Source: Bulleidia sp.
GTDB taxonomy: Bacteria; Bacillota_I; Bacilli_A; Erysipelotrichales; Erysipelotrichaceae
NCBI GenBank assembly: GCA_041859965.1
Contig: JBFLGD010000007.1
Span: 11,885 to 75,884 of the forward strand
DNA length: 64,000 bases
Direction of reading: 5' to 3'
Below the pieces are notes generated by a model that was not told the origin of the DNA, did not search any database, and saw only the letters and a program-made list of their open reading frames with translations. Positions within the stretch are counted from its first letter, which is position 1. Each line of letters starts with the position of its first letter. A program made the translations under genes and the position numbers. Shown here in pieces: positions 1 through 14,650 of this stretch.

Positions 1-1
1 A

Positions 2-814
2 GAAGGAATTGGTATTACCGAAAGAGACAATGCAAAGTTCTCCAGAGTACTGCAGAACAGTGCGGGTATGATACTGATCGTAGGCCCTACCGGTTCAGGA
101 AAGACAAGTACCCTGTATACAATGATTCAGGAATTGAAAAATGATTCCGTCAATATGATCTCACTGGAGGATCCAGTCGAATTCCAGATTGACGGGGTCA
201 CACAGGTAGCAATCAATGAGAAGGTCGGACTGACATTTGCTTCATCACTGAGAGCCTGCCTGAGACAGGATCCGGATATTATCTGCGTAGGAGAGATCCG
301 TGATGGTGAAACAGCCAGAATTGCTATGCAGGCAGCTATGACAGGACATCTTGTGCTGTCTACTATTCATACAGAGGATGCAATCAGTGCTATCGACAGA
401 CTGAAAGATCTGGGCATAGAACCATATCTGATTGGTGCTTCCGTACGTGCGGTTGTATCACAGCGTCTGGTAAGAAGAATCTGCCCGAACTGCCGTAAGG
501 AAGTGAAGCCTGATCTTGCGATGGCTGATCTGGCAGGCATTAAGAATCCTGAGAATTATCATTTCTACAAGGGAGAAGGATGTCATGCCTGCTTTAATAC
601 AGGATACAGAGGTAGAACAGGCGTCTTTGAAATACTGACAATGAACAGCGCACTGCGTGATGCTATTACAGAAGGTGAAAACTCTACTGAACTGAGAAAG
701 CTCGTTTATGAGCAGGGCAACTTCACACCGATGATCGTCAATGCAAGAGAGCTTGTTGAAAAGGGTGTAACTACACTGGAGGAAGTCGTACGTACCGTTG
801 CGACGATTGAATGA
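2..814 (+). CDS. pilB: Type IV pilus assembly ATPase PilB/PulE, 5'-truncated by window edge
   Basis: Frame open from window start; Walker [31 protein letters not shown], CxxC...CxxC zinc motif. Confidence 0.95.
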
Positions 815-1893
815 TTATGACGGATATCATAGAACACATTGCTCTGGGGGCTGATAAGGGAGCTTCCGATGTTCATTTCTCCAGAGGTATTCCAGTCAAA
901 TACAGAATAGACGGTGTCCTGCAGAATGCAGATGAGTATGCACTGACAAAGGAAGACTGTGAGAGATATGCAGAGGAACTTGCCGGTGATGAATACAAAC
1001 AGATTGAGAGTATAGGAGAACTGGATTCATCGGCTACTCTGGCTGGACATCGTGTACGTATTAATCTGTTCAGACAGCAGGGAGCAGTATCAGGTGCACT
1101 TCGTATTCTTTCAGATGATATACCGGAATTAAGCAGTCTGGGACTTCCTCCTGTTATTTCCAACTTCGTACAGTGGCAGAAGGGAATCATCCTTGTTACA
1201 GGTGAGACTGGTTCTGGTAAGTCTACAACAATGGCTTCTATTCTGAATCAGATCAACCATACAAGAAGAGAACATATCGTTACGCTTGAAGATCCTATTG
1301 AGTACATCTATCATCCTGATCACTGTCTGATCAACCAGAGAGAGATTGGAACTGATACAAAGAGCTATGCGGATGGTCTCAGAGCTATTTTGAGAGAAGA
1401 TCCGGATATCATTCTGATTGGTGAAATGAGAGATGGTGAAACGATAGAAACCGCTATGACAGCCGCTGAGACAGGACATCTTGTTTTTGCAACACTGCAT
1501 ACAAACAGTGCGGTTGACAGTGTTGACCGTATTGTAGGAACATTCCCGGCAGATAAGCAGCCACAGATAAGAATGCAGTTAAGTACGACCCTGAAGGCGG
1601 TTGTATCACAGCAGCTGCTCAGAAGAAAAGAAGGACATGGAAGAGCAGCTGCCTGTGAAGTAATGATTGTCACACCAGCTATTAGGAATATGATCCGTGA
1701 GGGAAGAACGCCGCAGATGCAGAGCGCATTGCTGAGCGGTGCAAGCCTTGGCTCTATTTCCATGGACAACAGTCTTATAGATATGGTTCATAAAGGAATC
1801 ATCAGCAGTGAACAGGCGATGGAAGCCTGTGCGGATGTTGATTACATGAAGAAGAATATAGGCGGCGGAATGACGGCTGTACGCAGATTCTAG
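811..1893 (+). CDS. pilT: Type IV pilus retraction ATPase PilT
   Basis: [26 protein letters not shown] and AIRNMIRE motif; ATGA overlap with pilB. Confidence 0.95.
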
Positions 1894-1909
1894 AAAGAGA
1901 GGGAGACCT

Positions 1910-3121
1910 ATGAAGTCTTATAAATACAGTGCTCTTTCTCCTGATGGAGCAAGAGTAGATGGAGTGGTAGAGGGAACAGATGAATACCATGCGGTCGACA
2001 AGATCAAGACAGAGTATCCAATCGTTCTGAGACTGCAGGAAGTAAAAACCGGCGGTATATGGGACTTTCTGAGAGCGGACATGAATACGAAGCTGGACAC
2101 AAAGGCTTTAAGTGTTATGTGCTCACAGTTCTCAGTTATTCTGAAGTCAGGTATCAGTCTGGACAGCTGTCTGCGATTAGTAGCAGGACAGACAATGGAC
2201 AAGCGTCTGAAGAAGATGCTGATGTCTTCTGCTGCAGACGTATCGCAGGGCATTCCATTAGCTACAGCATTTGAGAAGAATGATAAGAAGCTTCCTGTAC
2301 TGTTCGTAGAAACAATACGTGCAGGCGAAATGTCAGGTTCACTGGAAGATTCCTTTGCGAGTCTTCAGATCTACTATGAGAGACAGAGCGATGTCAGCGC
2401 AAAGGCTAAGCAGGCACTGACGTATCCTATGTTCGTTGTAGCTGTAGCAATTGTTGTATTGATTATTATCATGGTCAAGGTAGTTCCTACATTCATATCT
2501 GTGTTTGCAGATCTAGGCGGAGATCTTCCGGTTATGACACAGATACTGATTGCTATATCCAACTGGTTCAGCAATTACTGGATCTTCCTTGTGGCAATTA
2601 TGCTGATCATCTTCCTAGGAAGAATGATCTGGCTTTCCAAGGAGAAGGGACGCCTTCAGCATGCACGCATGCAGCTGAAGATGCCTGTTATGGGTAAGAT
2701 ACATAAACTGCAGGCGTCACAGCAGTTTGCCAATACCATGGCATCATTGATCAGAGCAGGACTCTCAATGGGAAATGCATTGGCAGTTACATCAAAGTGT
2801 ATGGATAATTCCTATCTTGGTGAAAGAGTCAGGAATATGGTAGAACAGGTAGAAACAGGACATTCTCTGACTGATACTATCAATCAGATAGACGAGTTCC
2901 CTGACATACTGAAACAGATGGTGGGAGTTGGAGAACGTACTGGTGAAATGGTTTCTACACTGGAAACCGTAGGTAAGTTCTATTCCCAGGAAACGGAATA
3001 CCAGACGAAGAAAGTACTGGCAAGACTGGAACCTACAATGCTGATTATCATTGCATTATTAGCTGGATTTGTAGTCATAGCAGTGTATCTTCCAATGTTC
3101 ACTATGTATAACTATATGTAG
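1910..3121 (+). CDS. pilC: Type IV pilus platform protein PilC (GspF family)
   Basis: GEMSGSLE and GERTGEM repeats, LTYPMFV, LEPTMLI..AVYLPMF TM pattern. Confidence 0.95.
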   Translation: MKSYKYSALSPDGARVDGVVEGTDEYHAVDKIKTEYPIVLRLQEVKTGGIWDFLRADMNTKLDTKALSVMCSQFSVILKSGISLDSCLRLVAGQTMDKRLKKMLMSSAADVSQGIPLATAFEKNDKKLPVLFVETIRAGEMSGSLEDSFASLQIYYERQSDVSAKAKQALTYPMFVVAVAIVVLIIIMVKVVPTFISVFADLGGDLPVMTQILIAISNWFSNYWIFLVAIMLIIFLGRMIWLSKEKGRLQHARMQLKMPVMGKIHKLQASQQFANTMASLIRAGLSMGNALAVTSKCMDNSYLGERVRNMVEQVETGHSLTDTINQIDEFPDILKQMVGVGERTGEMVSTLETVGKFYSQETEYQTKKVLARLEPTMLIIIALLAGFVVIAVYLPMFTMYNYM

Positions 3122-3179
3122 TCATAAATAATTTTTTATAAAATATGAGTATTTTACTTTACAAACATAAGGGAAATAC

Positions 3180-3188
3180 TGATATAAT
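3180..3188 (+). promoter_or_regulatory. Extended -10 promoter (TGnTATAAT) of major pilin
   Basis: TGATATAAT at 3180-3188; SD AAAGGAG before ATG 3252. Confidence 0.7.
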
Positions 3189-3251
3189 GTAGGCAGATAC
3201 AGAGATGCGGTATAAGAACCGCAATACAATCATTTAATAAAAAGGAGAAGA

Positions 3252-3626
3252 ATGATGAAAAAGTTAAACAAGAAAGGTTTTACCCTCGCTGAGTTACTTA
3301 TCGTTGTAGCGATTATCGCAGTCCTCGTTGGAATTTCCATCCCGATCTTCACTTCACAGCTGGAGAAGGCTAGAGAAGCAACAGACGCTGCTAATATCCG
3401 TGCAGCATATGCTGAAGTAAGTGCAAATTATCTAACAGCTGATGATGATAAGAAAGCTGAATCGAAAGAAGTCAAGTTAACACAGCAGACTGCAGGTTGG
3501 CAGGATGCAGCAATTAAGCTCCCAGAAAATCTGACTGTAGCAAAGGACGCAGTTCCGGCAGCTGGTGGCACAGCAACAGTTGCTGCTGATAAGGATGGCG
3601 CTATTACCCTTACCTACACCAAGTGA
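3252..3626 (+). CDS. pilA: Type IV major pilin (probable)
   Basis: Class III signal KKG|FTLAELLIVV; own promoter, strong SD and terminator. Confidence 0.9.
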   Translation: MMKKLNKKGFTLAELLIVVAIIAVLVGISIPIFTSQLEKAREATDAANIRAAYAEVSANYLTADDDKKAESKEVKLTQQTAGWQDAAIKLPENLTVAKDAVPAAGGTATVAADKDGAITLTYTK

Positions 3627-3652
3627 TTGTTAGTGTTTGTTCGTTAGTATAT

Positions 3653-3683
3653 GGGAGACAGGTCATACAATGATCTGTCTTTT
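3653..3683 (+). terminator. Rho-independent terminator after major pilin
   Basis: GAGACAGGTCA-tacaa-TGATCTGTCT followed by T run. Confidence 0.75.
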
Positions 3684-3772
3684 GTGTGTACTGTTGTATT
3701 GGCAAAAACAATTGCTACTGATTTTGATTTGAAATCGCATAAGAATGATTCCGAAATGGTCTTCTGGGATAC

Positions 3773-3799
3773 AAAAAGTCCTTGAAATAATTCAAGGGC
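3773..3799 (-). terminator. Rho-independent terminator of the inverted pilin pair
   Basis: Minus strand GCCCTTGAA-ttat-TTCAAGGAC-TTTTT, 19 nt past stop at 3818. Confidence 0.75.
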
Positions 3800-3817
3800 C
3801 TAATGGCAATATACTGT

Positions 3818-4261
3818 TTAGAATTGATTCTCTCCTATACCGGCTTGAATTGTATCATCAAGTTTTGCCTTTCCTTTAACGTAGTGAGGATAGGACAGCA
3901 GCAATTTACTTGAAATAGTGTATTTAATAGTTATGTATTCATAGATACCGTTGGAATCTTTTTTAGGCGCTGTTACAAACTTTGTTGATAGCTTAGAAGA
4001 ACTGACGTCATAGGTGTAATAATAAACATTAGAATATACAGCAGCTAATGCTTCACTGCCTTCATTTCCCATAATGTCATTCATTACTGCAGACTCAGCT
4101 GTTCAGATGTTGTATTCATTCTCCGCTATTTTTGCTTTATCTATCTGTGCTGTAAAGATAGGAATACTGACACCCACTAGTACTGCAATAATACCGACAA
4201 CAATGAGAAGTTCTGCCAATGTGAATCCAAGTCTGGAATGATGTTTGAGAATATTCTCCAT
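3818..4261 (-). pseudogene. Type IV pilin paralog interrupted by one in-frame TGA (4103-4105)
   Basis: SD AAAGAGGAAAGG, ATG 4261, RLG|FTLAE; ORF-track pieces 4103-4312 and 3818-4084 are in the same frame: NEYNI*TAESAVMNDIMGNEG aligns to NEYNIKSAEEAVLTDLMSNEG of the neighbour. Confidence 0.85.
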
Positions 4262-4289
4262 AATAGTTTTCCTTTCCTCTTTGATATGC

Positions 4290-4736
4290 TTATTTATTCC
4301 AGCTATTAACACCTGGAGAATTCACTATGGCTTCATCAAGTTTCGTCTTGTCTTTTACATAATGCGGTACAGTTCCGATTACCTGTGTATCTGTTTTGTA
4401 TATGATGAATATTGCTTTATATATGCCGTTTGAGTTCTTGTCTACTGATAACGCTGTTGATGAAATCTTTGCTGAACCCGTATCGTAATAGTAATAATAA
4501 GTATCACTTCTAGGATGCGATGCAGCACCGCTTCCTTCGTTGCTCATGAGATCTGTAAGTACAGCTTCTTCTGCTGATTTGATATTGTATTCATTTGCTG
4601 CAATCTTTGTTTTGTCCATCTGTGCAGTAAAAATTGGAATGCTGATACCTACAAGCACGGCAATAATAGCAACAACAATTAATAATTCAGCGAGCGTGAA
4701 ACCGAGCCTCCTGTGGGCTCTGCTTTTTCTATTCAT
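4290..4736 (-). CDS. Type IV pilin paralog (148 aa), Tyr-rich globular domain
   Basis: SD AGGAGG, ATG 4736, RRLG|FTLAELLIVVAIIAVLVGISIPIFT. Confidence 0.9.
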   Translation of the reverse strand: MNRKSRAHRRLGFTLAELLIVVAIIAVLVGISIPIFTAQMDKTKIAANEYNIKSAEEAVLTDLMSNEGSGAASHPRSDTYYYYYDTGSAKISSTALSVDKNSNGIYKAIFIIYKTDTQVIGTVPHYVKDKTKLDEAIVNSPGVNSWNK

Positions 4737-4856
4737 ATTATGAGTTCCTCCTGTGCTTATGACTGATTTCATAATAATACAGAATAGAAATCCTTACAAA
4801 TGTTATAACACTTGTATATCAGGCATTCAGCTATACATGTGTACTAGTAAATACGT

Positions 4857-4862
4857 TATAAT
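4857..4862 (+). promoter_or_regulatory. -10 box for downstream pil operon
   Basis: TATAAT 32 nt upstream of ATG 4894; -35 not convincing. Confidence 0.45.
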
Positions 4863-4893
4863 ATAGGCATAACCGAAACAGTAAGGTGTGTAT

Positions 4894-5340
4894 ATGATTC
4901 TAAATAACAGAAAAGGGAAAATATCCAGATTCGAGACAATATTAATTCTGGTGATTATTGCCTGCCTTGCCTTTTTCGTGTTCATTGGACTGAAATGGGA
5001 AAAAGATTCTCTTGATACAGGCAATGATTCATTAAGAGAGAATACAGCAAAGAGCGTAGCTATTGTTAACAGCAATAACGGCATTCAGTGCATGATAAAA
5101 GATTGCCCAAGCTATTCCGGCGGTACATGTACGCACCAGTACGGAACAGATGGATACTTTGGATATTATAATGATGTGTCCAATACGATCGTCGGCGATC
5201 TTCCATCAGGCTACAATGATGGTACTGAAATGGATATTGACGGTAAAAAGTATTATGGAGACCGTGGAACCATGGTCATTAAGGTGACAATTGAGCCTGG
5301 TGAAGAACCTGTGCTTTCATGGGTGAAAGGAAAGGAGTAA
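4894..5340 (+). CDS. Pilin-like membrane-anchored protein with non-canonical signal and Cys cluster
   Basis: NNRKGKISRFE + hydrophobic helix; CMIKDC..TCTH; located directly before pilD. Confidence 0.6.
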   Translation: MILNNRKGKISRFETILILVIIACLAFFVFIGLKWEKDSLDTGNDSLRENTAKSVAIVNSNNGIQCMIKDCPSYSGGTCTHQYGTDGYFGYYNDVSNTIVGDLPSGYNDGTEMDIDGKKYYGDRGTMVIKVTIEPGEEPVLSWVKGKE

Positions 5341-5343
5341 TGC

Positions 5344-6126
5344 ATGCCTTTTTCCTCATTTGATTCATACTTTATTATCTACTTTCTTGTGATCAGCGGG
5401 ATATTCGGAGCTGTTATGGGAAGCGCAGTTACATGTCAGGCAGATCGGCTGAGTGCGCATGAAAGCTGGCTGAAGGGCAGGAGCCACTGTGATGCCTGCG
5501 GACATGAACTTGGTATTCTAGACCTGATACCGGTATTCAGCTATCTCATTCATAAAGGGAAGTGCAGGTACTGCGGTACTAAACTAAGCAAAAAGTACCT
5601 GATTACTGAACTTCTGATGGCAGCTGGATTTGTATTAATTGCAATGCACTATAACTGCTTTACAGTACTGATCATTCGTGACTGGGGACTGATGTGTGCA
5701 CTGCTTGGACTGTCTGTGGTGGACATGGAATCCTATGAAATACCGGACCGTTATATTGTCTTCGGCATTGTATGGAGACTGCTGTTCCTGTTTGCTGAAG
5801 AGGACAGGGTATCAGCTTTGAAGAATGGTGTACTGACTGGCCTTGCTGTAGCAGGTTCACTGCTTGTGATATCCCTGATCATGGATCACATTCTCAAGAA
5901 GGAATCTATGGGTGGAGGAGACATCAAGCTCTTCTTCATGACCGGTCTCTATATGAACCTGTTTATGGGGCTGTTTAACGTGATTATCGCGTGTTTATGC
6001 GGTCTAAGTTTTATGGTAATATTAAAAAAAGAGAAAATACCTTTCGGACCTTCCATCAGTATTGCGACGGTCGTTACATTGCTGATTGGGACACAGTTCG
6101 TGCAGTGGTATTTAGGACTGCTCTAA
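5344..6126 (+). CDS. pilD: Prepilin peptidase/N-methyltransferase (A24)
   Basis: CxxC...GKCRYC zinc motifs, VVDMES and MGGGDIKL catalytic Asp motifs, IPFGPSI. Confidence 0.95.
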   Translation: MPFSSFDSYFIIYFLVISGIFGAVMGSAVTCQADRLSAHESWLKGRSHCDACGHELGILDLIPVFSYLIHKGKCRYCGTKLSKKYLITELLMAAGFVLIAMHYNCFTVLIIRDWGLMCALLGLSVVDMESYEIPDRYIVFGIVWRLLFLFAEEDRVSALKNGVLTGLAVAGSLLVISLIMDHILKKESMGGGDIKLFFMTGLYMNLFMGLFNVIIACLCGLSFMVILKKEKIPFGPSISIATVVTLLIGTQFVQWYLGLL

Positions 6127-6148
6127 GAAACGGAAAGGACTTTCACAT

Positions 6149-7120
6149 ATGGCAAAAGATATACTGGGAATCGAAATTGGAGAGAACCGTATTAAGCTGG
6201 TACAGATGTCACACGGCACTGTAACACGTTTTGTGTCTATTAAAGTACCTGAACAGAGTATCAGCGGTGATGCTGTTGTGGCATGGGATGCACTGGCTGA
6301 TGATGTGAAAAAGGCACTGAAGGAGAATAAGTTCAGTGCTAAGAGAACTGCGGTGGTGATACCTGATTCAGAAACATATGTCAGAAGACTGAAGATGCCT
6401 TCCATGACCGAGAGCCAACTGAACTTCAACCTCCCATACGAATTCAGAGATGTTATTCCTGATGAGAAGGACAAGTATATCTTTGACTATTCCGTCATCA
6501 GAGAATCTGAAGACGGCGGTGAAATGGAAATACTCGGCGCTGCAATTTCTAAGGAAAAACTGGAGAATTATGAACATCTGACTGCTAGATCCGGATTGAG
6601 ACTGGTCAAGGCTGCACCTAGAGTAATGGCACTGCAGTGCCTGATCAGAGAACTGAAAGGTGCTGACAATACGGAAGATACCGCAGTGATCAATTATGAA
6701 TGGAATACGACAAGAGTAGATATTTTCCATGAAGGGATCTATGAAGTAACCAGAAATATTGATACTGGTGTTAAGGATATCGTTAAAGCAGCCGCTGAGA
6801 AGCTGAACTGCGATCCGCATATTGCTGAAAGCTACTGTGCTGATAACAGCAATAATGTTCTGGAATCTCCTGAGTGCATTGCTGTGTATAACACAATATC
6901 AGTAGAGATTATGAGAGCTTTGAACTACTACACATATGAGAATCAGGGAAGCACATTGAATATGCTGTACTACTTCGGTGACGGTGCAGGTATCTCAAGA
7001 ATGATCGATGAACTTAAGAACACAGTATCACTGACAATCATGCCGCTTTCAGATCTTGCACAGGTAAATGCGGAAGCTTTGATCAATGGAGCAGATGCCG
7101 TAGGCATCTGTCTGGAATAG
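6149..7120 (+). CDS. pilM: Pilus alignment protein PilM (actin-like)
   Basis: GIEIGENRIK actin-fold start; position pilD-M-N-O. Confidence 0.85.
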   Translation: MAKDILGIEIGENRIKLVQMSHGTVTRFVSIKVPEQSISGDAVVAWDALADDVKKALKENKFSAKRTAVVIPDSETYVRRLKMPSMTESQLNFNLPYEFRDVIPDEKDKYIFDYSVIRESEDGGEMEILGAAISKEKLENYEHLTARSGLRLVKAAPRVMALQCLIRELKGADNTEDTAVINYEWNTTRVDIFHEGIYEVTRNIDTGVKDIVKAAAEKLNCDPHIAESYCADNSNNVLESPECIAVYNTISVEIMRALNYYTYENQGSTLNMLYYFGDGAGISRMIDELKNTVSLTIMPLSDLAQVNAEALINGADAVGICLE

Positions 7121-7130
7121 GAGGATTGCG

Positions 7131-7775
7131 ATGAATGAAGAGAAGAAAAAATCCGCACTTTCCAGAGATATTACTTTCGGGAAGAAAAAGGACAGGAAGC
7201 CAACCAAGGTTTCAATGAACTTTGTTAAGTATGACCGGAGCGCTGCTAATAAAAAAGCAGTTATTATCTTTGTCGTATTCCTTCTGGCACTGAGCTTGTT
7301 TATTAAGTTTGGGGTTGTTGACCAGATATCCAGAGTGAGTGCGGCCGAGAATGAGTACAATACACTGCAGTCACAGCTGGATGCGTATGACAGTGCAATG
7401 TCTGACTATGACGATGTGAAGAAGGAATACGATGAAAAGGTCGGCTCCTTCACGAGTGATTCCGAGATAGCTTCTGAAGACAGAGATGGTATCTTTACAA
7501 TGATCGATGAAGATATCGCTCCATCTGTTGCAGTAAAGGCTGTTTCAATCAAGAATAATCAGGTGTCAGTAACTACAGACAGTACAAGCCTTTCCACAGT
7601 ATCCTCTATCATCACAATTCTGCAGAGCGACTCACGCAACACATATGTAACAGTAACAACGACTGCAGCTTCCTCTGACAGTTCCGGCGATACAGTCATT
7701 GCAGACTTTGAAATCACCTATGGTCAGAAGGTAACAGCAGATGATACAGAAGAAACAGGAGGTACACAGCAATGA
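7131..7775 (+). CDS. pilN: PilN-like alignment protein
   Basis: SMNF motif, single TM, coiled coil, ferredoxin-like C-terminus; synteny. Confidence 0.7.
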   Translation: MNEEKKKSALSRDITFGKKKDRKPTKVSMNFVKYDRSAANKKAVIIFVVFLLALSLFIKFGVVDQISRVSAAENEYNTLQSQLDAYDSAMSDYDDVKKEYDEKVGSFTSDSEIASEDRDGIFTMIDEDIAPSVAVKAVSIKNNQVSVTTDSTSLSTVSSIITILQSDSRNTYVTVTTTAASSDSSGDTVIADFEITYGQKVTADDTEETGGTQQ

Positions 7776-8368
7776 AGCATAAGTTTACATTCCGTGAATC
7801 AGTACTTCTGGCTGTCGCTGCTGTGATGCTGCTGGCTGTCTTCTATTACATCGTTGTATATAAGAATGTAGAAAATCAGTTAGCACAGTATGATACTACA
7901 GATCTTGTAACTGAACAGACAATTGCTTCTCAGAAGTCTGCTGCATATACGCAGATGAAGAAGGCAATCTCCAGTGAAGAAACAAAGAGCCATGGTACAG
8001 TTGAGCCATATAATAACCTGGCAAATGAAGTGAATGCATTAGGTGCACAGCTGAATGGAAAGTCTACGGATATCCGTATCTCCTGGGCTGATCCGGTACT
8101 TACAGATACAACCGTCAGGAGAGTAGCACAGGTCTCCTGCAATGTAGGAAGCTATGCCGAAGCAGAAAGTCTCGTCAGAAATATTGAAAATCTGCAGTAT
8201 CGTTGCATCATTACAGATCTCACCATTGATTCCTCCGATACGACAGGCAATACAGTCAGCGTATCAATGACCGTGACATTCTTCGAAACAACAGATGGGG
8301 CTGTTTCTACGGAAGGACTGACAGTATCTGAAGATGATACTGCTACAGCCACATCAAACAGCAATTAA
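7772..8368 (+). CDS. pilO: PilO-like alignment protein
   Basis: FTFRE + TM, coiled coil; ATGA overlap with pilN; synteny. Confidence 0.7.
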   Translation: MKHKFTFRESVLLAVAAVMLLAVFYYIVVYKNVENQLAQYDTTDLVTEQTIASQKSAAYTQMKKAISSEETKSHGTVEPYNNLANEVNALGAQLNGKSTDIRISWADPVLTDTTVRRVAQVSCNVGSYAEAESLVRNIENLQYRCIITDLTIDSSDTTGNTVSVSMTVTFFETTDGAVSTEGLTVSEDDTATATSNSN

Positions 8369-8384
8369 AAAAGAAAGAAAAAGA

Positions 8385-11300
8385 ATGAAAAAGATCCTGA
8401 GCAGAATGAAGGACAACTGCAGAAAGGGATTCACGTTAGCAGAACTGATGATTGTTGTATCAATCACCATCATACTGGCGTCAATCGGAACCATTGCAAT
8501 TGTTCAATATCAGAAAAACTTAAAACTTGCGGAAATGAACAATATGGCCCGTGAGATTTTCGTTGCGGCTCAGAATCACTTAACAGACTCCAAGACAACA
8601 GGCAGCTGGCAGGAGTATGCTTCTACACTGAACAGCGGAGAAACTGCTTCAACAGACAGTTCTGTTTCAATAGACAATGCAGACAGCGCCTATCAGGGTG
8701 CAGTCACAGGAACAAAGTATTATTATGCTATCTACAGTTCAGATAAATCGGATGTACTGACTGATTCCAATTATGCACTGTCATATATGCTTCCATTTGG
8801 ATCGCTTGAGGATACAGTCAGAACATCCGGAAGCTATGTGATCATCTTCAATCCTGACAATGAAACAATTCATACTGTGTATTATACAGAGAAGGAGAAC
8901 TTTACCTCTGATGAAGTATCCAAACTGATGTCCATGGATAAAGGCGCATGGACTGTTATGACTGAGAAGGAGATTCCTGTCGGTGTTTATGGCGATGCGG
9001 ATAAGGGAAAATTCACAGCAACTGCATTGAAAACACCTGTGATTACTGTTCATAATGAAGATACCTTGAATATAGATATTCAGGATCTGAACACAGAGAA
9101 TACAACATTGGAGTTTACAGTCAGCGGTTTAACTAGCAAAGCAACAGCTAAGTTTGAAGTGACGCAGAACAATGGAACCGTGACTGTACTGAGCAAAGAC
9201 AATAACAGCACATGGACATACAGCAGTTCCAGCAAAACATTCAATGTTGTTCTGGATGATATCAGAACACAGAATCAGAACTTTATTACAAAGTTCTCTA
9301 AATTCTATCCGGGAGAAAACATAAGTGTAACAGCAAAGTTTAAATCGAGAACCACTTCGTCTGTATCTGTCAGTGCAAGTTCGATTACCAATTCACTGTA
9401 TGCTTCTGTTACGGATGAGAATGATGCTGGCACCAAGGTGAGTGCAGTTATCAATAATCCAAGACATCTGCAGAACCTAGACAGTTCTGTATCTTATGTA
9501 AATGCTTCCTATAAGAACAATGCAAATGGACTCACGGTAGACAATGCAGTGATTGCTTCTGATCTTGACTGGGCTGACTTTATCAGTGAAAACTGTGTAT
9601 ATAGAGCAACTGGCAAGGCAGTTGATGATGTTTCAAGTACGCATAGTTCAAAGTTCAGTTCTATCGTTAATGATTCATTGACTTCATTGACAAGTGATAC
9701 AGAAGGGACCTCACGTACTTTATCGAACTTTAACTTTGGATCCAATGGAGATGGAGCCGGTCTTTTAGGTGAGATTAATTTAACTTCAGCAGGTTTTAAG
9801 ATCAGCGACATCAATCTTGAGAACTGTAGATCCTACGGAACTGACAGTGTTGGAATGCTGGTTGGAATTGTTAACAATAACAATACGAGTGCTTATGTAC
9901 AGGTAAGCAATGTACATGCATATATGAAGGCAACAAGCACGCTGTCGATAGCGGACGCCTACAGTGAAGCAAGTGACTCTGATAACAGACGTATTGTGGA
10001 TGGAGGAAATAAATCCACAATCGGCGGACTGATAGGTACAGTTGATGGCAATCTAAGCATGAGGAACTCCTCGGCTTCTGTGAGAGTCGGTGATGGCAAG
10101 CAGATATATGCTGGTGGAATGATAGGAAGAATCACTTCAGGCACTGTATCAATCAATGAGTCGTATGTAGGCGGCTACCTTGGTAAGAATGGTACAAAGA
10201 CATCCTATGATATGGATAAGCCCAATGTTATGGCTTCAAACGGAAATACTGCAGCCGGTGGATTTATTGCCCAGGCAGATAATGCGGCTGTCACAATTAA
10301 GGAATGCTATACAACAGCATCTGTTTATGGACATACAGCCGGTGGATTTATTGGTGTCGATAATACGGGTGTCAGATATGCAGATGTTTATACGACTTCA
10401 TTTGTTCAGGGCAATACAGTTGGAAGATTTGTTGGTACAGGTACAGGCACACTTATTAGCTACAATACATATGCCGGTGTTTTAGAGACATCGCAACTTT
10501 ATGATATGAGCGGCAAGACAGCAGCTGAATCAGCACAGCCTTCATATGTAACTGAATTCCTTTCTTCAGAACTTAAGAACCAGTCAGGAAGCAGTACACA
10601 GACAGCATCTGTATATTCGTCTTCAGCATTGAAGAGTGCGGTATATCCATATCCTTCCAGTGCATCCAAGGGTACGCACTATGGAGACTGGGTAGAGGCA
10701 GCTGATCCTATTATCCCTACAGATGGCATAGGATTCCTTTATTACGAGAAGGTGGATGGAAGCTATTACTATAATGGAGTGCAGTGTTCTAAGAATGGAA
10801 AAGTAACGGCTGTAAGCAATCCAACATTGCTTAATAATGGCGGAACATACAGCCACTATACTGTTGAGGATGATGGGTACATTCTTGTCATTCCAAACGG
10901 ATATCTGGCAAGCAACTGGAATACAAGATTTTCTTTCAATTCCTATCATGGATACGATGATACACAGTGGGGAGGGATCTCCCTGGATTTACTGTATAGA
11001 AGTGGACTTGTCTCTTATACGTCAAGCACAATAACTTCAGCACTGGGAATTGGAGATGGGTATACTGCTGTTACGATTAATAAGAACAGCAGAACACTGG
11101 ATTATATGAATAATGACAGTCAGGGCGGACTGTCCATATATTTCAGAGGAAATGATGATATTCAGCGAAATTCTATAAAGGGAACGTTCAATTATAACTA
11201 TTGTTTTGGCAACAGTATTGAGGGAAGTACTAGAGATGCTGTTAACACCCCATATGAAATTAGAAGTGCTTCTCAGCTGAAACTACTCTTTAACGATAAC

Positions 11301-13574
11301 AGTGCTGATACATTCCTGAATTCGAATCATAAATATACTGTGACACAGACAATGGATATTACCGCAGAATCCAATATGTCGACTCTTGATGAACTCTTTG
11401 GAACATATCAGGGCATTATGATGGATGATGGCAATTACTCAAAATTATCCGATTTTGATTCTACTTTTGTAGGGTATGTAGGTCCGACCGGAATCATTCA
11501 GAATATCGTATTTGACGGCACTTACATAGATTCAAAATATGATCTTTACAGATACAATGGAGGATATGGAACATTCGTCTCTTCCTTGGAAGGAAAACTT
11601 CAGAATGTGACAGTCAATAACACTTCTGTGAAGGCAGGCAGCTGGAATTACAGCAGCTACAACTTCGGTGTTATAGGCTCAATGAGCGGAGGAAGCACTT
11701 CTGCAGTCAGCAACGTTAAAATTAGCAATGTTGATTTCACCGGTACATCTTTCTATGCAAACAGCCTTGGAGTTATCGCATCTGCAGGGGCTGGAAGTAT
11801 AACTGATACTTCTATTACAGGCGTCAGTATTAAATGTCCTACTTTGGCAGCAAAGAATACCGGTGTGATTGCGGCTGCTACCGGTGGATTTGTATCATGT
11901 AAGAATCTGACAATATCAGATGTTAATTGTACAGACAGCAAAGTCACATCAGATAATACCTTTGGTGCTATAGGAAGTGTGTCTGGCGGAAGTCTTGATA
12001 CAGTTTCAATCAGCAAGGTGAATATTAATGATTCTACAATCACTTCAGATTATGTAGGGGCAGTGGCGAATCTTGAATATGGCAGCGGAACGGTCTCAGG
12101 GCTGTCTGTCAGCAATATTAATGTCACAGACAGTACGATCAATTCAACGGTCACCGGTATAGGAATCGGCGGTATTGAAAATCAGACAATTTATAATACG
12201 TCTGTTTCAGATATAAAGATTTCAAAGGTGACAAATAAATCGTCATCCTCTGCTGGAATTATTGGAGAGATCGATAATGACGGGTATCTGAACAATACAG
12301 TAATTAGAAATATCTCAATACTTGATTCAAGTATAACTGCACAGTACACAGGTGCTATTGGAAATGTTGCTTCATCAGGGGCAGGAGTATACAACACATT
12401 AATTTCAGGTGTAACAATCGGTACCGATCCAGCGGATGATGAAGATGAAGTCAATGCGAAACTTGATGCGACTTATGCAGGCATAGCAGTTGGTTTCAAC
12501 AAAGGCGTTATTTCCGGTATCACGGTGGGAACACATGAAGCCGGTGTTACAGTCAACAAAGTGAATATTGATGCGGATAACTTTGGAATTATTGCATGCA
12601 ATTCCAATAATAATGGTTACATAGTTGACTATATTGATTCTGATGGCAACGGTGTTTCTGATGGGCAGTCAACATTTGAGCATATATCTCTGACAAATCT
12701 TACATTGAAGAATACTTCTGGCTATAATGTGCTGAATGCAGGAATCATCGCGAATAACTCCGGTATAATCACAGACTTTGCAATGAAGGATATTGTGATG
12801 ACGGGTTGGAATCTCCCGACGGATATTACGTCAATCAATGCTGGCGCAATAGGCAATAATTCTGGAACTATTGATAGAACAAGCGAATTTGAAACAAATC
12901 CTGTACGAAATCTGACAATGTCTGGTTTCACTTCCGGGACTGACAAGACTGCATATACAGATTATGCATTTGCAGGATTGAATTCTGGCTACAGTACATT
13001 GCTCAGATACATTACGATCAATGATTACTATACCGAAGGCTATGGAGCTGTCTATAACAATGCTGATGGTTCAACGATCAGCAATATCACAATCGATATG
13101 ACAGATCATACAGATGACATTCCATATGTGATCGATCCCGCTGATCCAAATGCTACAGAGAACAGAGTGATTCCGCATATTGGCAGAGATGGATTTGCAT
13201 ATAAGAATAGTTCCAGAGTATCAACGTGTGTGATCACGAATGCTGTTAAAGATACAGCAAATCCTGAGAACAGCAGCATCCTTGGCAATGTCTTTATTGA
13301 AGCAGCGAACAATACTGGAACCATCGACGACTGTGAAGTCACAGACTCTAATGGAACTGTATTGTGGCCTGTGACATCCAGAATGAGTGTTGCACCAGCT
13401 GCCGTCACACAGCAGCCTTCAACGCCGTCTGCATCCGCACAGAGCAATGCTTCGGCATCTGCATCATCATCCGCTGACAGCACAGCATCTGCTTCCGCTT
13501 CACCTTCACCTTCTCCGTCGGCTTCTTCAGCAGCTGGAAGCAGTGCATCACCTTCTGCTTCTGCAGGACAGTGA
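8385..13574 (+). CDS. Giant pilin/adhesin (~1,730 aa): class III signal, Ig-like segment, two GLUG-like beta-helix modules, S/A/P tail
   Basis: RKG|FTLAELMIVV at 8421-8450; repeated GGxIG/GVIG/GAIG units; start moved from 8334 to ATG 8385 (8406 also possible). Confidence 0.85.
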   Translation: MKKILSRMKDNCRKGFTLAELMIVVSITIILASIGTIAIVQYQKNLKLAEMNNMAREIFVAAQNHLTDSKTTGSWQEYASTLNSGETASTDSSVSIDNADSAYQGAVTGTKYYYAIYSSDKSDVLTDSNYALSYMLPFGSLEDTVRTSGSYVIIFNPDNETIHTVYYTEKENFTSDEVSKLMSMDKGAWTVMTEKEIPVGVYGDADKGKFTATALKTPVITVHNEDTLNIDIQDLNTENTTLEFTVSGLTSKATAKFEVTQNNGTVTVLSKDNNSTWTYSSSSKTFNVVLDDIRTQNQNFITKFSKFYPGENISVTAKFKSRTTSSVSVSASSITNSLYASVTDENDAGTKVSAVINNPRHLQNLDSSVSYVNASYKNNANGLTVDNAVIASDLDWADFISENCVYRATGKAVDDVSSTHSSKFSSIVNDSLTSLTSDTEGTSRTLSNFNFGSNGDGAGLLGEINLTSAGFKISDINLENCRSYGTDSVGMLVGIVNNNNTSAYVQVSNVHAYMKATSTLSIADAYSEASDSDNRRIVDGGNKSTIGGLIGTVDGNLSMRNSSASVRVGDGKQIYAGGMIGRITSGTVSINESYVGGYLGKNGTKTSYDMDKPNVMASNGNTAAGGFIAQADNAAVTIKECYTTASVYGHTAGGFIGVDNTGVRYADVYTTSFVQGNTVGRFVGTGTGTLISYNTYAGVLETSQLYDMSGKTAAESAQPSYVTEFLSSELKNQSGSSTQTASVYSSSALKSAVYPYPSSASKGTHYGDWVEAADPIIPTDGIGFLYYEKVDGSYYYNGVQCSKNGKVTAVSNPTLLNNGGTYSHYTVEDDGYILVIPNGYLASNWNTRFSFNSYHGYDDTQWGGISLDLLYRSGLVSYTSSTITSALGIGDGYTAVTINKNSRTLDYMNNDSQGGLSIYFRGNDDIQRNSIKGTFNYNYCFGNSIEGSTRDAVNTPYEIRSASQLKLLFNDNSADTFLNSNHKYTVTQTMDITAESNMSTLDELFGTYQGIMMDDGNYSKLSDFDSTFVGYVGPTGIIQNIVFDGTYIDSKYDLYRYNGGYGTFVSSLEGKLQNVTVNNTSVKAGSWNYSSYNFGVIGSMSGGSTSAVSNVKISNVDFTGTSFYANSLGVIASAGAGSITDTSITGVSIKCPTLAAKNTGVIAAATGGFVSCKNLTISDVNCTDSKVTSDNTFGAIGSVSGGSLDTVSISKVNINDSTITSDYVGAVANLEYGSGTVSGLSVSNINVTDSTINSTVTGIGIGGIENQTIYNTSVSDIKISKVTNKSSSSAGIIGEIDNDGYLNNTVIRNISILDSSITAQYTGAIGNVASSGAGVYNTLISGVTIGTDPADDEDEVNAKLDATYAGIAVGFNKGVISGITVGTHEAGVTVNKVNIDADNFGIIACNSNNNGYIVDYIDSDGNGVSDGQSTFEHISLTNLTLKNTSGYNVLNAGIIANNSGIITDFAMKDIVMTGWNLPTDITSINAGAIGNNSGTIDRTSEFETNPVRNLTMSGFTSGTDKTAYTDYAFAGLNSGYSTLLRYITINDYYTEGYGAVYNNADGSTISNITIDMTDHTDDIPYVIDPADPNATENRVIPHIGRDGFAYKNSSRVSTCVITNAVKDTANPENSSILGNVFIEAANNTGTIDDCEVTDSNGTVLWPVTSRMSVAPAAVTQQPSTPSASAQSNASASASSSADSTASASASPSPSPSASSAAGSSASPSASAGQ
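13384..13571 (+). repeat. Low-complexity Ser/Ala/Pro coding tail
   Basis: SASAQSNASASASSSADSTASASASPSPSPSASSAAG. Confidence 0.8.
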
Positions 13575-13583
13575 AGACAAAGG

Positions 13584-13612
13584 TTCAAAAATCAACACAA
13601 CTGCAGTAGAAT
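13584..13612 (+). promoter_or_regulatory. Sigma70 promoter of pfkB gene (likely leaderless)
   Basis: TTCAAA-17-TAGAAT, 7 nt, then ATG 13620; no SD. Confidence 0.6.
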
Positions 13613-13619
13613 AGTTAAC

Positions 13620-14528
13620 ATGAAAACTCTGGTAATAGGCTCATGTGTATGTGATGTAAGTATCTATCTGGACCATCTGCCATCAACAGAGGAAGATATC
13701 AACACTAAGGCACAGAAAATGTCTCTTGGCGGATGCGCTTATAACGTATCCAACATGCTCAGACTGTTTTCTGTGCCTTATATGCTGTATGCCCCTGTAG
13801 GTACAGGTATATTCGGTGACTATGTAGACAGCCATCTGCGTGCACAGGGCGTTATGCCTGCTAGACGTGTACAGGAGGAGAATGGTGCCTGCTACTGTCT
13901 GATTGATGAAGAAGGCAACCGTTCCTTTATGGCACTTCATGGAGCAGAATATCATATTCATAAAGATTGGCTGGATGAATTGGATATGCATGCGTATGAC
14001 ATGGTCTATGTATGCGGACTGGAATTAGAGGAAACAACAGGCGAGGAGATCCTTTCCTTCCTTGAAGAGCATAGAGAACTGAAAGTCGTATTTGCTTCGG
14101 GTCCACGTATTCAGTATATACAGAAGGATAGAATGGAAAGAATGATGAAGCTCCATCCTTTATGGCATCTGAATGGAAGAGAAGGAAGAACACTGCTGGG
14201 AGATATGTCATTGAGTGCACAGGAAACTGTAAAACGTCTGCATTCTCTTAGCGATGGTGCTGTGATTATGACAGATGGCGGAAATCCAGTGACAGTCTAT
14301 GACAATAATGATGTGGAGAGCATTCCAGTTGAGAAGGCTGAAGCAGTGGATGGCAATGGTGCCGGGGATGCACACATTGGTACTCTTATGGCACTTCTGC
14401 AGAAGGGATTTACACTGGAGAAGGCAATACAGAAGGCAAATCTTATCAGTGCTGCAGTGCTTGGCACAAAGGGAGCAGTACTCCCTGATGACAGATTTAA
14501 TACGATTAAAGACGGCATTCTTCGTTAA
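13620..14528 (+). CDS. PfkB/ribokinase-family carbohydrate kinase
   Basis: GGCAYNV N-terminal and DGNGAGDAH C-terminal PfkB signatures. Confidence 0.9.
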   Translation: MKTLVIGSCVCDVSIYLDHLPSTEEDINTKAQKMSLGGCAYNVSNMLRLFSVPYMLYAPVGTGIFGDYVDSHLRAQGVMPARRVQEENGACYCLIDEEGNRSFMALHGAEYHIHKDWLDELDMHAYDMVYVCGLELEETTGEEILSFLEEHRELKVVFASGPRIQYIQKDRMERMMKLHPLWHLNGREGRTLLGDMSLSAQETVKRLHSLSDGAVIMTDGGNPVTVYDNNDVESIPVEKAEAVDGNGAGDAHIGTLMALLQKGFTLEKAIQKANLISAAVLGTKGAVLPDDRFNTIKDGILR

Positions 14529-14563
14529 GGAGAATGTTTTCTTTCTTTTTATTTTCATGAAAA

Positions 14564-14580
14564 AGTAACTGTGAGTTACA
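14564..14580. promoter_or_regulatory. GlnR/TnrA-like box upstream of gdhA
   Basis: AGTAA-N7-TTACA, one mismatch to TGTNA-N7-TNACA; candidate promoter TTTTCA-17-TAGAAT at 14598-14626. Confidence 0.45.
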
Positions 14581-14650
14581 GTATACCGAAAGATGTGTTT
14601 TCATGACGGCTAAAATGGAATAGAATAGGAATGTTTCAAAGGAGACAGGA

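What the first reader, a model, noticed from the sequence alone, without database searches (positions are those of the whole stretch)
3773..4760. Inverted tandem pilin cassette embedded in the pil locus: same N-terminal protein, different DNA
Seen: two ~148-codon paralogous pilin genes on the minus strand with their own SDs and terminator, convergent on the major pilin. The 26 residues GFTLAELLIVVAIIAVLVGISIPIFT are identical between the major pilin (3276-3353) and the 4736 pilin (4703-4626), yet by hand count 19 of 26 codons differ synonymously. The C-terminal domains are unrelated to the major pilin but related to each other. Inference: strong protein-level selection for co-assembly into the same filament, i.e. 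independently regulated alternative or minor pilins that change the pilus surface by transcriptional switching rather than pilE/pilS-type recombination.
Basis: partly seen in the sequence, partly recalled or inferred. Interest (0 to 1): 0.7.

Follow-up and report, generated by a model that had tools for sequence, protein, structure and literature searches.

The report
Strain-variable accessory pilin pair, one broken
Inside the type IV pilus gene cluster of an uncultured Bulleidia-like gut/bioreactor bacterium sits a two-gene operon of extra pilins. One gene is intact and the other is knocked out by a stop codon. Comparison with related strains shows the region varies by recombination, decay and mobile-element insertion, which is an ordinary way for pilins to evolve, and there is no sign of a regulated switch.

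Summary
The sequence observation holds. The 26 residues GFTLAELLIVVAIIAVLVGISIPIFT are identical in the putative major pilin and in pilin copy 1, and 19 of 26 codons (21 of 78 nt) differ.

The 26-mer is the consensus of a very large Firmicute pilin family: 104 of 119 other protein clusters differ at 2 positions or fewer. Its identity here therefore shows generic purifying selection. It does not show special co-assembly.

Copy 1 and copy 2 form one operon, with one promoter-like site, a 28-nt spacer and one terminator.

Conspecific metagenome contigs with 97-98% identical flanks carry four allele types:
- a tandem pair with copy 2 intact (CGA);
- a tandem pair with the TGA;
- a tandem pair whose copy 2 has lost its start codon and carries two frameshifts;
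- a single hybrid gene made by an exact 475-bp deletion between the conserved 5' segments.

Short gene-conversion tracts also link the two copies. All 14 loci have the same orientation. Copy 1 is under purifying selection (pN/pS 0.09-0.23).

Verdict: this is a strain-variable accessory pilin locus shaped by recombination and decay. I found no RNA data to test regulation. It is a new member of a known kind, of modest interest.

The parts
3252..3626 (+). Putative major pilin gene (124 aa, leader MMKKLNKKG|F). The N-terminal 55 residues are invariant among strains; the C-terminal ~70 residues are hypervariable.
3647..3689 (+). Terminator-like hairpin after the major pilin gene
3780..3797 (-). Terminator-like hairpin (CCTTGAA-TTAT-TTCAAGG + T run) that ends the cassette operon
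3818..4261 (-). Pilin copy 2. It has 147 codons, its own SD (GAGGAAAGG) and leader MENILKHHSRLG|F, but is inactivated by an in-frame stop. It is a pseudogene in this genome.
4103..4105 (-). In-frame TGA at codon 53 of copy 2. The ancestral codon is CGA (Arg), as seen in L004, L087-L089 and in runs X7-X9 (4105 A>G).
4290..4736 (-). Pilin copy 1 (148 aa, leader MNRKSRAHRRLG|F, E at +5). It is intact and under purifying selection.
4747..4751 (-). Shine-Dalgarno GGAGG of copy 1
4771..4799 (-). Promoter-like site TTGTAA-17 nt-TATTAT upstream of copy 1. It is the only such site for the cassette.
4795..4816 (.). 22-bp palindrome TACAAATGTTATAACACTTGTA overlapping the -35 hexamer. It is a possible operator; this is inference only.
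4056..4234 (-). Direct-repeat arm in copy 2, covering the 5' coding segment. Its partner is at 4531-4709, the period is 475 bp and identity is 72% over 179 nt. The crossover octamer ATTGTTGT is at 4197-4204.
4531..4709 (-). Direct-repeat arm in copy 1. The crossover octamer ATTGTTGT is at 4672-4679. Deleting the 475 bp between the octamers gives the hybrid gene of L004-L006.
3276..3367 (+). Inverted-repeat arm (major pilin N-terminal coding segment). It pairs with 4612-4703 at 74% complementarity. The longest exact shared run is 8 nt.

Best explanation
The cassette is a strain-variable accessory pilin operon in the type IVa pilus locus of an uncultured Erysipelotrichaceae bacterium. The bacterium is Bulleidia/Solobacterium-like and comes from anaerobic bioreactor, fermentation and manure communities.

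Copy 1 is a functional prepilin. I infer that the locus-encoded PilD cleaves it after Gly. Because its alpha1-N helix equals that of the major pilin, I infer that it can enter the same filament core as an alternative or additional subunit with a different exposed C-terminal domain. Copy 2 is a recently inactivated paralogue in this genome.

Diversity arises at the population level. It comes from unequal recombination and short gene conversion between the conserved 5' coding segments of the tandem copies, and from point mutations, indels and mobile-element insertions. It does not come from a regulated switch within a cell. Selection probably favours different pilus surfaces in co-existing strains.

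Shown here: the anatomy, the stop codon, the set of alleles, the recombination junction and the selective constraint on copy 1. Inferred: processing, incorporation into pili, and the agent of selection.
For: Locus anatomy. The locus runs pilB-pilT-pilC-pilA | copy 2 < copy 1 < | orfX-pilD-pilM-pilN-pilO-giant pilin. The signal peptides are canonical: G-1, F+1, E+5.

One operon. The cassette has one promoter-like site, a 28-nt spacer and one terminator.

Copy 1 is constrained. pN/pS is 0.09 (against L089), 0.13 (against L091) and 0.23 (against L090), compared with 0.03-0.11 for the flanking pil genes.

Copy 2 looks relaxed. Its pN/pS is 0.38-0.51 against intact alleles, compared with 0.15 between two intact alleles. 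It is also damaged independently in other lineages: TGA plus a Gly-1 to Val change in L090, and ATG to ATA plus +1 and -1 frameshifts in L091/L092.

Intact tandem pairs exist. L087 and L089 carry them; the short L088 contig shows copy 2 intact with only the end of copy 1.

The hybrid allele. L004-L006 carry a single hybrid gene. The flanks match the window at 97-98%. The 5' end is copy 1 and the rest is copy 2, with the switch between diagnostic sites 9 and 10 of 26.

Conversion tracts. Five consecutive copy-1 states occur in the copy 2 of L091/L092, and a copy-2-like tract occurs in the copy 1 of L090.

Co-existence. Tandem and hybrid forms occur together in one metagenome. In X7 the path depths are 43.2 and 95.7 against a flank depth of 142. 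The hybrid junction is also seen in X5 and X8.

Neighbouring variability. The C-terminal third of the major pilin is likewise hypervariable among strains.

Precedents. Streptococcus sanguinis pili contain two or three pilin paralogues with identical N-termini, and the gene number differs among strains (PMC4832360, PMC11121087). Tandem paralogue clusters can diversify by recombination at a conserved segment, with the unit being 3' end + spacer + next 5' end (PMC2568036).
Against: - I found no transcription or protein data; no RNA run could be listed. Expression of copy 1 and its presence in pili are therefore unproven.
- The structure model is of low confidence (mean pLDDT 55.8), so the pilin fold of the C-terminal domain is only suggested.
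- The hybrid junction is the same wherever it was seen. It may reflect a single ancestral deletion and not recurrent recombination.
- The direction of change (deletion from a tandem pair, or import of a tandem pair into a single-copy strain) rests on parsimony.
- The pN/pS values for copy 2 rest on only 7-9 non-synonymous differences.
- Logan contig depths are approximate.
Confidence: 0.6

Rival explanations
1. The cassette encodes independently regulated alternative pilins, and the cell changes its pilus surface by switching transcription between the major pilin and the cassette.
For: The cassette is on the opposite strand and has its own promoter-like site and terminator. A 22-bp palindrome overlaps the -35 hexamer and could bind a regulator. 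Copy 1 is under purifying selection. Its helix is identical to that of the major pilin.
Against: Only one cassette gene is intact here. The two copies share one transcription unit. The helix identity is the family consensus and is not a specific match. All the variation actually observed is at the DNA level. No RNA data exist.
Confidence: 0.15
2. Programmed recombinational variation of the pilE/pilS type. Copy 2 would be a silent donor cassette whose C-terminal domain is moved behind the expressed copy 1 promoter and leader by recombination in the conserved 5' segment.
For: Copy 2 is non-expressible as a full protein in several lineages, yet it is otherwise well conserved. The hybrid allele places the copy 2 domain, without the stop, behind the copy 1 promoter and leader. 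Conversion tracts occur between the copies. Tandem and hybrid forms co-exist in one community.
Against: - Copy 2 keeps its own SD, start codon and leader, and it is intact in L087-L089. It is therefore not a dedicated promoterless, 5'-truncated silent copy.
- The hybrid is a deletion that destroys copy 1, so it is irreversible.
- The conversion tracts are confined to the conserved segment.
- The copies are about 80% identical over 99-129 nt and share at most 11 exact nt.
- There is no G-quadruplex motif in 3000-5500.
- There is only one donor.
Confidence: 0.07
3. Copy 1 is a low-abundance minor pilin, for example a tip or priming subunit or an adhesin carrier. It would not be a filament-forming alternative subunit.
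For: The gene lies outside the main pil transcription units. Its GC content is lower (38% against 43%). Its C-terminal domain is an orphan with only two real relatives among 1.84 billion representatives, as is common for accessory pilins.
Against: Its N-terminal 26 residues are identical to the major pilin, as in the co-polymerising PilE1/PilE2 of S. sanguinis (PMC4832360). The locus already has candidate minor pilins upstream of pilB (L004 genes at 13168-14639) and a giant modular pilin at 8334-13574.
Confidence: 0.25
4. The whole cassette is a decaying remnant with no present function.
For: Copy 2 is broken in three different ways in different lineages. An ISL3 element sits next to the cassette in L092/L093. 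The cassette has low GC.
Against: Copy 1 is intact in every tandem-bearing locus. Its pN/pS of 0.09-0.23 is similar to that of the essential pil genes. Every conspecific locus recovered keeps at least one intact cassette-type gene.
Confidence: 0.08

Closest known systems
Streptococcus sanguinis type IV pili with multiple major pilins (PilE1/PilE2; PilA1-3 in CGMH010)
   Same: It is a Gram-positive, clustered pil locus. It has several pilin paralogues with identical N-terminal helices and divergent C-termini. The number of pilin genes differs among strains, and single pilins are dispensable (PMC4832360, PMC11121087).
   Different: In S. sanguinis the paralogues are 70-94% identical overall, lie in line with the machinery genes and are shown to be in the pili. 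Here the cassette domains are unrelated to the major pilin, the operon is convergent with its own promoter, one copy is a pseudogene, and nothing has been shown experimentally.
Tandem paralogue cluster diversification by recombination at a conserved intragenic segment (Staphylococcus aureus lpl cluster, Tsuru and Kobayashi 2008, PMC2568036)
   Same: A conserved segment inside each ORF acts as the recombination site. The unit gained or lost is the 3' variable part + spacer + 5' part of the next ORF, which here is 475 bp. Strains differ in copy number and carry hybrids.
   Different: The protein family is different. There are only two copies here, the conserved segment is at the 5' end and not central, and only one crossover type was recovered.
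Neisseria pilE/pilS antigenic variation (from established knowledge)
   Same: There is a conserved N-terminal coding region, variable C-terminal regions, a non-expressed copy beside an expressed one, and recombination between them.
   Different: pilS copies lack a promoter and the 5' coding region, and there are many of them. They donate variable segments by non-reciprocal, RecA-dependent conversion that needs a G4 element. Here the second copy is a complete gene that has recently been inactivated, the tracts lie in the conserved part, the hybrid arises by deletion, and no G4 motif is present.
Moraxella bovis/lacunata Q/I pilin inversion (Piv) and shufflons (from established knowledge)
   Same: Two pilin coding regions face each other and share an N-terminal segment. 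This geometry could in principle swap C-termini by inversion.
   Different: There is no recombinase gene in the locus. The arms are only 74% identical, with at most 8 exact nt. All 14 related loci have the same orientation.
Allelic pilin islands in Pseudomonas aeruginosa (pilA groups) and Dichelobacter nodosus (fimA serogroups) (from established knowledge)
   Same: Within a species, pilin C-terminal regions and the adjacent DNA are replaced between conserved flanks, and co-existing strains carry different alleles.
   Different: Those are Gram-negative systems, the variable unit is the major pilin with accessory genes, and there is no tandem accessory pilin pair.

Membership tests
Type IV pilin (class III signal peptide; PF07963 / TIGR02532) | A short basic leader ending in Gly, then Phe+1, Glu+5 and about 20 hydrophobic residues | tested here: met
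   Copy 1 reads MNRKSRAHRRLG|FTLAELLIVV... and copy 2 reads MENILKHHSRLG|FTLAELLIVV... N_methyl E-values are 2.5e-06 and 5.1e-06; TIGR02532 scores exceed the cut-off.
Type IV pilin (class III signal peptide; PF07963 / TIGR02532) | Encoded together with a prepilin peptidase, an assembly ATPase and a platform protein | tested here: met
   PilD (A24_N_bact + Peptidase_A24), PilM, a PilO-like protein, PilC, PilT and PilB are in the same locus.
Type IV pilin (class III signal peptide; PF07963 / TIGR02532) | A long N-terminal helix packed on an antiparallel beta-sheet | tested here: inconclusive
   The AF2 model has helix 15-65 and five strands, but mean pLDDT is 55.8 and pTM is 0.29. PDB sequence hits cover only the N-terminal helix.
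Type IV pilin (class III signal peptide; PF07963 / TIGR02532) | Cleaved by PilD and found in the filament | not testable with these tools
   This needs immunoblots in a pilD mutant and mass spectrometry of sheared pili.
Multi-major-pilin pili of the S. sanguinis type | Paralogues share an identical N-terminal helix | tested here: met
   26 of 26 residues are identical between the major pilin and copy 1. The match is 24 of 26 with the window's copy 2.
Multi-major-pilin pili of the S. sanguinis type | Paralogues are highly similar over most of their length and lie in line with the machinery genes | tested here: not met
   There is no detectable similarity beyond about residue 55. The cassette is convergent and has its own promoter and terminator.
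pilE/pilS-type antigenic variation | Silent copies lack a promoter, a start codon and the 5' coding region | tested here: not met
   Copy 2 has an SD, an ATG and a full leader. It is intact in L087-L089.
pilE/pilS-type antigenic variation | Non-reciprocal transfer of variable C-terminal segments into the expressed gene | tested here: not met
   The conversion tracts lie only in the conserved 5' segment. The hybrid is a 475-bp deletion.
pilE/pilS-type antigenic variation | A G-quadruplex-forming element near the expression locus | tested here: not met
   No G3+N1-7 x4 motif is present on either strand of 3000-5500.
Invertible pilin switch (Piv / shufflon type) | A site-specific recombinase gene in or beside the locus | tested here: not met
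   There is no recombinase ORF in window 1-14500. The serine recombinase seen in L001 belongs to an inserted mobile element that is absent from the window.
Invertible pilin switch (Piv / shufflon type) | Both orientations are present in populations | tested here: not met
   All 14 conspecific loci have the same orientation. The only opposite-strand joint is a 392-nt foldback contig in X4, inside copy 2.
Tandem paralogue cluster with a recombination-prone conserved segment (lpl type) | Strains differ by gain or loss of a unit made of 3' variable part + spacer + next 5' part, with the crossover in the conserved segment | tested here: met
   The period is 475 bp. L004-L006 lack exactly one unit. 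The crossover is in ATTGTTGT at 4197-4204 / 4672-4679.

The most novel reading that the evidence does not exclude
The conserved N-terminal coding segments of Gram-positive pilin genes may serve as recombination anchors in a two-layer subunit-replacement system.
1. A defective downstream cassette is reactivated when a deletion fuses it to the expressed promoter and leader of copy 1.
2. A serine-recombinase mobile element integrates into codon ~22 of the major pilin gene and may excise again. This would turn the main subunit off and leave the cassette pilin as the only filament subunit.

If so, this would be a DNA-level pilin switching mechanism in Erysipelotrichaceae.
Probability: 0.1. Interest if true: 0.6.

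Novelty: new member of a known kind. Interest (0 to 1): 0.3.

Why it matters
Type IV pili of Gram-positive anaerobes are little studied. A full PilB/PilT/PilC/PilM-type locus is not among the pilus systems described for cultured Bulleidia, where only tad and comG are reported (PMC12786226).

This locus gives a clean natural series for watching how pilin repertoires turn over within one species in engineered anaerobic ecosystems. The series comprises an intact pair, three independently broken pairs and a fusion gene.

The practical lesson for genome scans is that an identical pilin N-terminus with different codons is the normal state of this protein family. It should not be read as a signal of a special mechanism.

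Tried and rejected
- Genome-collection scan with the C-terminal domain alignment: no relative found.
- Genome-collection scan with PilM: only a 23%-identity hit. The species is not among the GTDB representatives searched.
- Metagenome-collection scans: the first found nothing; the second found only N-terminal matches.
- RNA runs: none could be listed, so transcription could not be tested.
- Structure: the AF2 model from a 3-sequence alignment was too poor (pLDDT 55.8) to justify a fold search, so none was run.
- PDB sequence search: only the N-terminal helix matched.
- Codon-bias explanation for the synonymous differences: rejected. The major pilin and the cassette genes have similar C/T-ending preferences (0.38, 0.40, 0.34).
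- TGA recoding: rejected. TGA ends 21 of 47 ORFs in the window, and the orthologous codon is Arg, not Trp or Sec.
- Inversion between the facing N-terminal segments: rejected on sequence (74% identity, 8-nt longest exact run) and on population data.
- Rfam scan of the window: found only one tRNA.

Full report
**1. What is at the coordinates**

Window 1-14500 is a Gram-positive type IVa pilus locus. Its genes are:
- pilB (partial, 68-814);
- pilT (811-1893);
- pilC (1910-3121);
- a 124-aa pilin (3252-3626, +) with its own terminator;
- on the minus strand, two pilin paralogues;
- back on the plus strand, a 148-aa membrane protein (4894-5340);
- pilD (5344-6126);
- pilM (6149-7120);
- a 214-aa ORF at the pilN position (7131-7775) with no Pfam match;
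- a pilO-like gene (7772-8368) with a weak T2SSM match;
- a 1746-aa protein with a pilin-type N-terminus (8334-13574).

These assignments rest. Copy 1 runs 4736-4290 (148 aa). Copy 2 runs 4261-3818.

**2. Checking the observation**

GFTLAELLIVVAIIAVLVGISIPIFT is encoded at 3276-3353 (+) and at 4703-4626 (-). 19 of 26 codons and 21 of 78 nucleotides differ, with no amino-acid change.

The C-terminal domains of the two copies resemble each other (49-55% identity). They do not resemble the major pilin.

It therefore yields only 52-aa and 88-aa fragments. TGA is a real stop in this organism. It ends 21 of 47 ORFs in the window, including the major pilin. The orthologous codon elsewhere is CGA, Arg. 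The stop is not an assembly error of this record, because it recurs in independent assemblies L001, L002 and L090.

**3. Is the N-terminal identity special?**

It is not. Of the 119 other best-scoring clusters from the protein search, 40 differ from the 26-mer at one position and 64 at two. Their C-terminal domains are unrelated, and they come from Lachnospiraceae, Eubacteriales, Erysipelotrichaceae and other groups.

Synonymous sites are saturated between the paralogues. pS is 0.85 for major pilin against copy 1 and 0.66 for copy 1 against copy 2 in the helix. The genes are therefore old paralogues held by purifying selection, with no recent gene conversion between the major pilin and the cassette. 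This is the ordinary state of the alpha1-N helix of type IV pilins. Codon bias does not explain the differences.

**4. Transcription units**

The only promoter-like site for the cassette is TTGTAA-17-TATTAT at 4799-4771 (-). The spacer between the copies is 28 nt, with no promoter or terminator match. One terminator-like hairpin follows copy 2 at 3797-3780. The two copies therefore form one operon. A 22-bp palindrome (4795-4816) overlaps the -35 hexamer and could be an operator; that is inference. No RNA run could be found.

**5. Organism and habitat**

The window's Tex protein is 82-84% identical to its nearest relatives, one of which is named as a Bulleidia sp. MAG. The closest named homologue of the cassette pilin is from a Solobacterium sp. 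MAG. The organism is therefore an uncultured Erysipelotrichaceae bacterium.

It is not among the species representatives searched. Runs that hold the cassette are bioreactor-sludge, fermentation, manure and wastewater metagenomes. Cultured Bulleidia extructa is reported to have only tad and comG filament systems (PMC12786226).

**6. The C-terminal domain is nearly an orphan**

The full-database search found only three clusters that cover the whole protein. An exhaustive search of 1.84 billion representatives with the C-terminal 96 residues found two real relatives.

The more distant relatives, P0003 and P0257, are single genes in a sister lineage. They lie downstream of mupG and PTS genes and outside any pil locus. 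P0003 is followed by a fic gene. P0257 is followed by a region with ParA, ParB, DUF6075 and an SpaA/TED adhesin.

**7. Comparison among conspecific strains**

This was the most informative step. Contigs whose flanking pil genes are 97-98% identical to the window carry four forms of the cassette.

(a) Tandem pair with copy 2 intact. L087 and L089 show this. L088 is a 566-nt contig that shows copy 2 intact with only the end of copy 1.

(b) Tandem pair with the CGA-to-TGA change. This is found in the window, L001, L002 and L090. L090 also changes the cleavage-site Gly to Val.

(c) A lineage whose cassette is about 92% identical to the window's (L091-L094). The sequences examined (L091, L092) show that copy 2 has lost its start codon (ATG to ATA) and carries a +1 and a -1 frameshift. 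In L092 and L093 an ISL3 transposase lies between the cassette and the major pilin.

(d) A single hybrid gene (L004-L006; proteins P0002 and P0129). It carries the copy 1 promoter, leader and first nine mature codons, followed by copy 2 without the stop.

The hybrid differs from the tandem form by exactly one 475-bp repeat unit. The crossover lies in the shared octamer ATTGTTGT (4197-4204 / 4672-4679), between diagnostic sites 9 and 10 of 26.

The same site-by-site analysis shows short mosaic tracts. Five consecutive copy-1 states occur inside the copy 2 of L091/L092. A copy-2-like tract occurs inside the copy 1 of L090.

Contig depths indicate that tandem and hybrid forms co-exist in one community. 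In X7 the depths are 43.2 and 95.7 against a flank depth of 142. The hybrid junction appears as a loose end in X5 and X8. In X7-X9 only the CGA allele is seen at 4105.

All 14 loci have the cassette in the same orientation. The facing N-terminal segments share at most 8 exact nucleotides. I therefore see neither evidence of inversion nor a plausible DNA substrate for it.

**8. Selection**

Copy 1 orthologues have pN/pS of 0.09-0.23, which is close to the 0.03-0.11 of the flanking pil genes. The window's copy 2 gives 0.38-0.51 against intact alleles, compared with 0.15 between two intact alleles. The copy 2 counts are small (7-9 non-synonymous changes), but they agree with recent loss of constraint.

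In the L091 lineage the cassette is more diverged (pS 0.225) than its flanks (0.064-0.085). The cassette alleles are therefore older than the surrounding genome or were imported. Cassette GC is 36-38% against 43% for the window.

**9. The neighbouring major pilin is also variable**

Its first 55 residues are invariant. Its last ~70 residues fall into four allele types in five loci, and the DNA from about 3451 to 3816 does not align between strains. Several alternative continuations after position 3416 are present in X5-X9.

**10. Most likely working**

Copy 1 is a functional accessory pilin that is transcribed on its own. I infer that PilD cleaves it and that its family-standard helix lets it enter the filament. 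Copy 2 is a recently dead paralogue in this genome.

The locus diversifies among co-existing strains in several ways: unequal recombination and conversion in the conserved 5' segments, point mutations, indels and mobile-element insertion.

This resembles two known cases. One is the multi-pilin pili of Streptococcus sanguinis, where paralogues with identical N-termini co-occur in pili and their number differs among strains (PMC4832360, PMC11121087). The other is the recombination-driven turnover of tandem paralogue clusters (PMC2568036).

It does not meet the defining features of pilE/pilS variation or of invertible pilin switches; the membership table gives the details. What drives the diversity (phage, predators or surface specificity) is unknown.

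**11. Verdict**

The sequence observation is accurate but incomplete. The region does hold accessory pilins under strong N-terminal constraint. It is not a demonstrated transcriptional switch, and the only variation that can be documented is recombinational and mutational.

The kind of thing is known. This member and its orphan C-terminal domain are new. Interest is modest.

Noticed in passing
window 3317|3318; L001:9308-11532: In L001, which is 99.96% identical to the window over 9.3 kb, the major pilin gene is interrupted at codon ~22, inside the conserved helix. The insert is a mobile element that carries a 412-aa unknown ORF and a large serine recombinase (Recombinase + Zn_ribbon_recom). 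The same right junction appears as a loose end in runs X1 and X3-X9. In X3 the intact and interrupted alleles have similar depth (3.8 and 3.7). The element is absent from the window. It could act as an on/off insertion in the main pilin gene.
   Followed up: partly
window 3242 (run X1): The X1 contig that comes from pilC leaves the window sequence at 3242, not at 3317. The left junction of the inserted element therefore does not mirror the right one, and 75 bp (SD, start codon, leader) are unaccounted for.
   Followed up: no
window 3416-3816: The C-terminal third of the major pilin and the spacer down to the cassette are hypervariable among strains that are otherwise 97-98% identical. There are four allele types in five loci, and several alternative continuations after 3416 in X5-X9.
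   Followed up: partly
window 3267 (runs X7-X9): Contigs join the pilin N-terminal coding DNA from a different upstream sequence that encodes the leader MTNRKG. Another pilin gene or allele therefore shares near-identical 5' DNA with the major pilin. This fits the five- to ten-fold excess depth over 3314-3427.
   Followed up: no
L092:1744-3168; L093:1509-2933: An ISL3-family transposase, split into 259-aa and 206-aa ORFs, lies between the cassette and the major pilin in the ~92% lineage.
   Followed up: no
window 8334-13574: A 1746-aa protein has a pilin-type class III signal peptide (RKG|FTLAELMIVV), a very long repetitive body and a Ser/Ala-rich tail. It is a giant modular pilin, probably an adhesin carried on the pilus.
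   Followed up: no
window 4894-5340: A 148-aa membrane protein upstream of pilD has a degenerate pilin-like N-terminus (RKGKISRFETILILVII) and no family match. It is conserved (97.5-98.9% nt) in all related loci.
   Followed up: no
window 4795-4816: A 22-bp palindrome, TACAAATGTTATAACACTTGTA, overlaps the -35 hexamer of the predicted copy 1 promoter and may be an operator. Its core is conserved in L004, and one allele in run X8 carries insertions within it.
   Followed up: no
window 4704-4720 (+): A terminator-like hairpin (GAGCCTCCTGTGGGCTC + T run) lies on the plus strand, antisense to the copy 1 leader codons. It is not expected in the L091 lineage, whose leader differs, so it is probably a chance match.
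   Followed up: no
L007:8001-8441; L095:8001-8444: Orphan homologues of the cassette pilin (P0003, P0257) occupy one chromosomal site in a sister lineage, downstream of mupG and PTS genes and away from any pil locus. P0003 is next to a fic gene. P0257 is followed by a region with ParA, ParB, DUF6075 and an SpaA/TED adhesin. The two alleles differ strongly.
   Followed up: partly
window 4021-4083 (run X4): One 392-nt contig joins opposite strands inside copy 2, giving a foldback next to the stop codon. It is most likely an assembly artefact in a low-depth run.
   Followed up: no
L004:13168-14639: Upstream of pilB, beyond the window's left end, the related locus has three small genes. One has a faint N_methyl match. 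They are candidate minor pilins.
   Followed up: no
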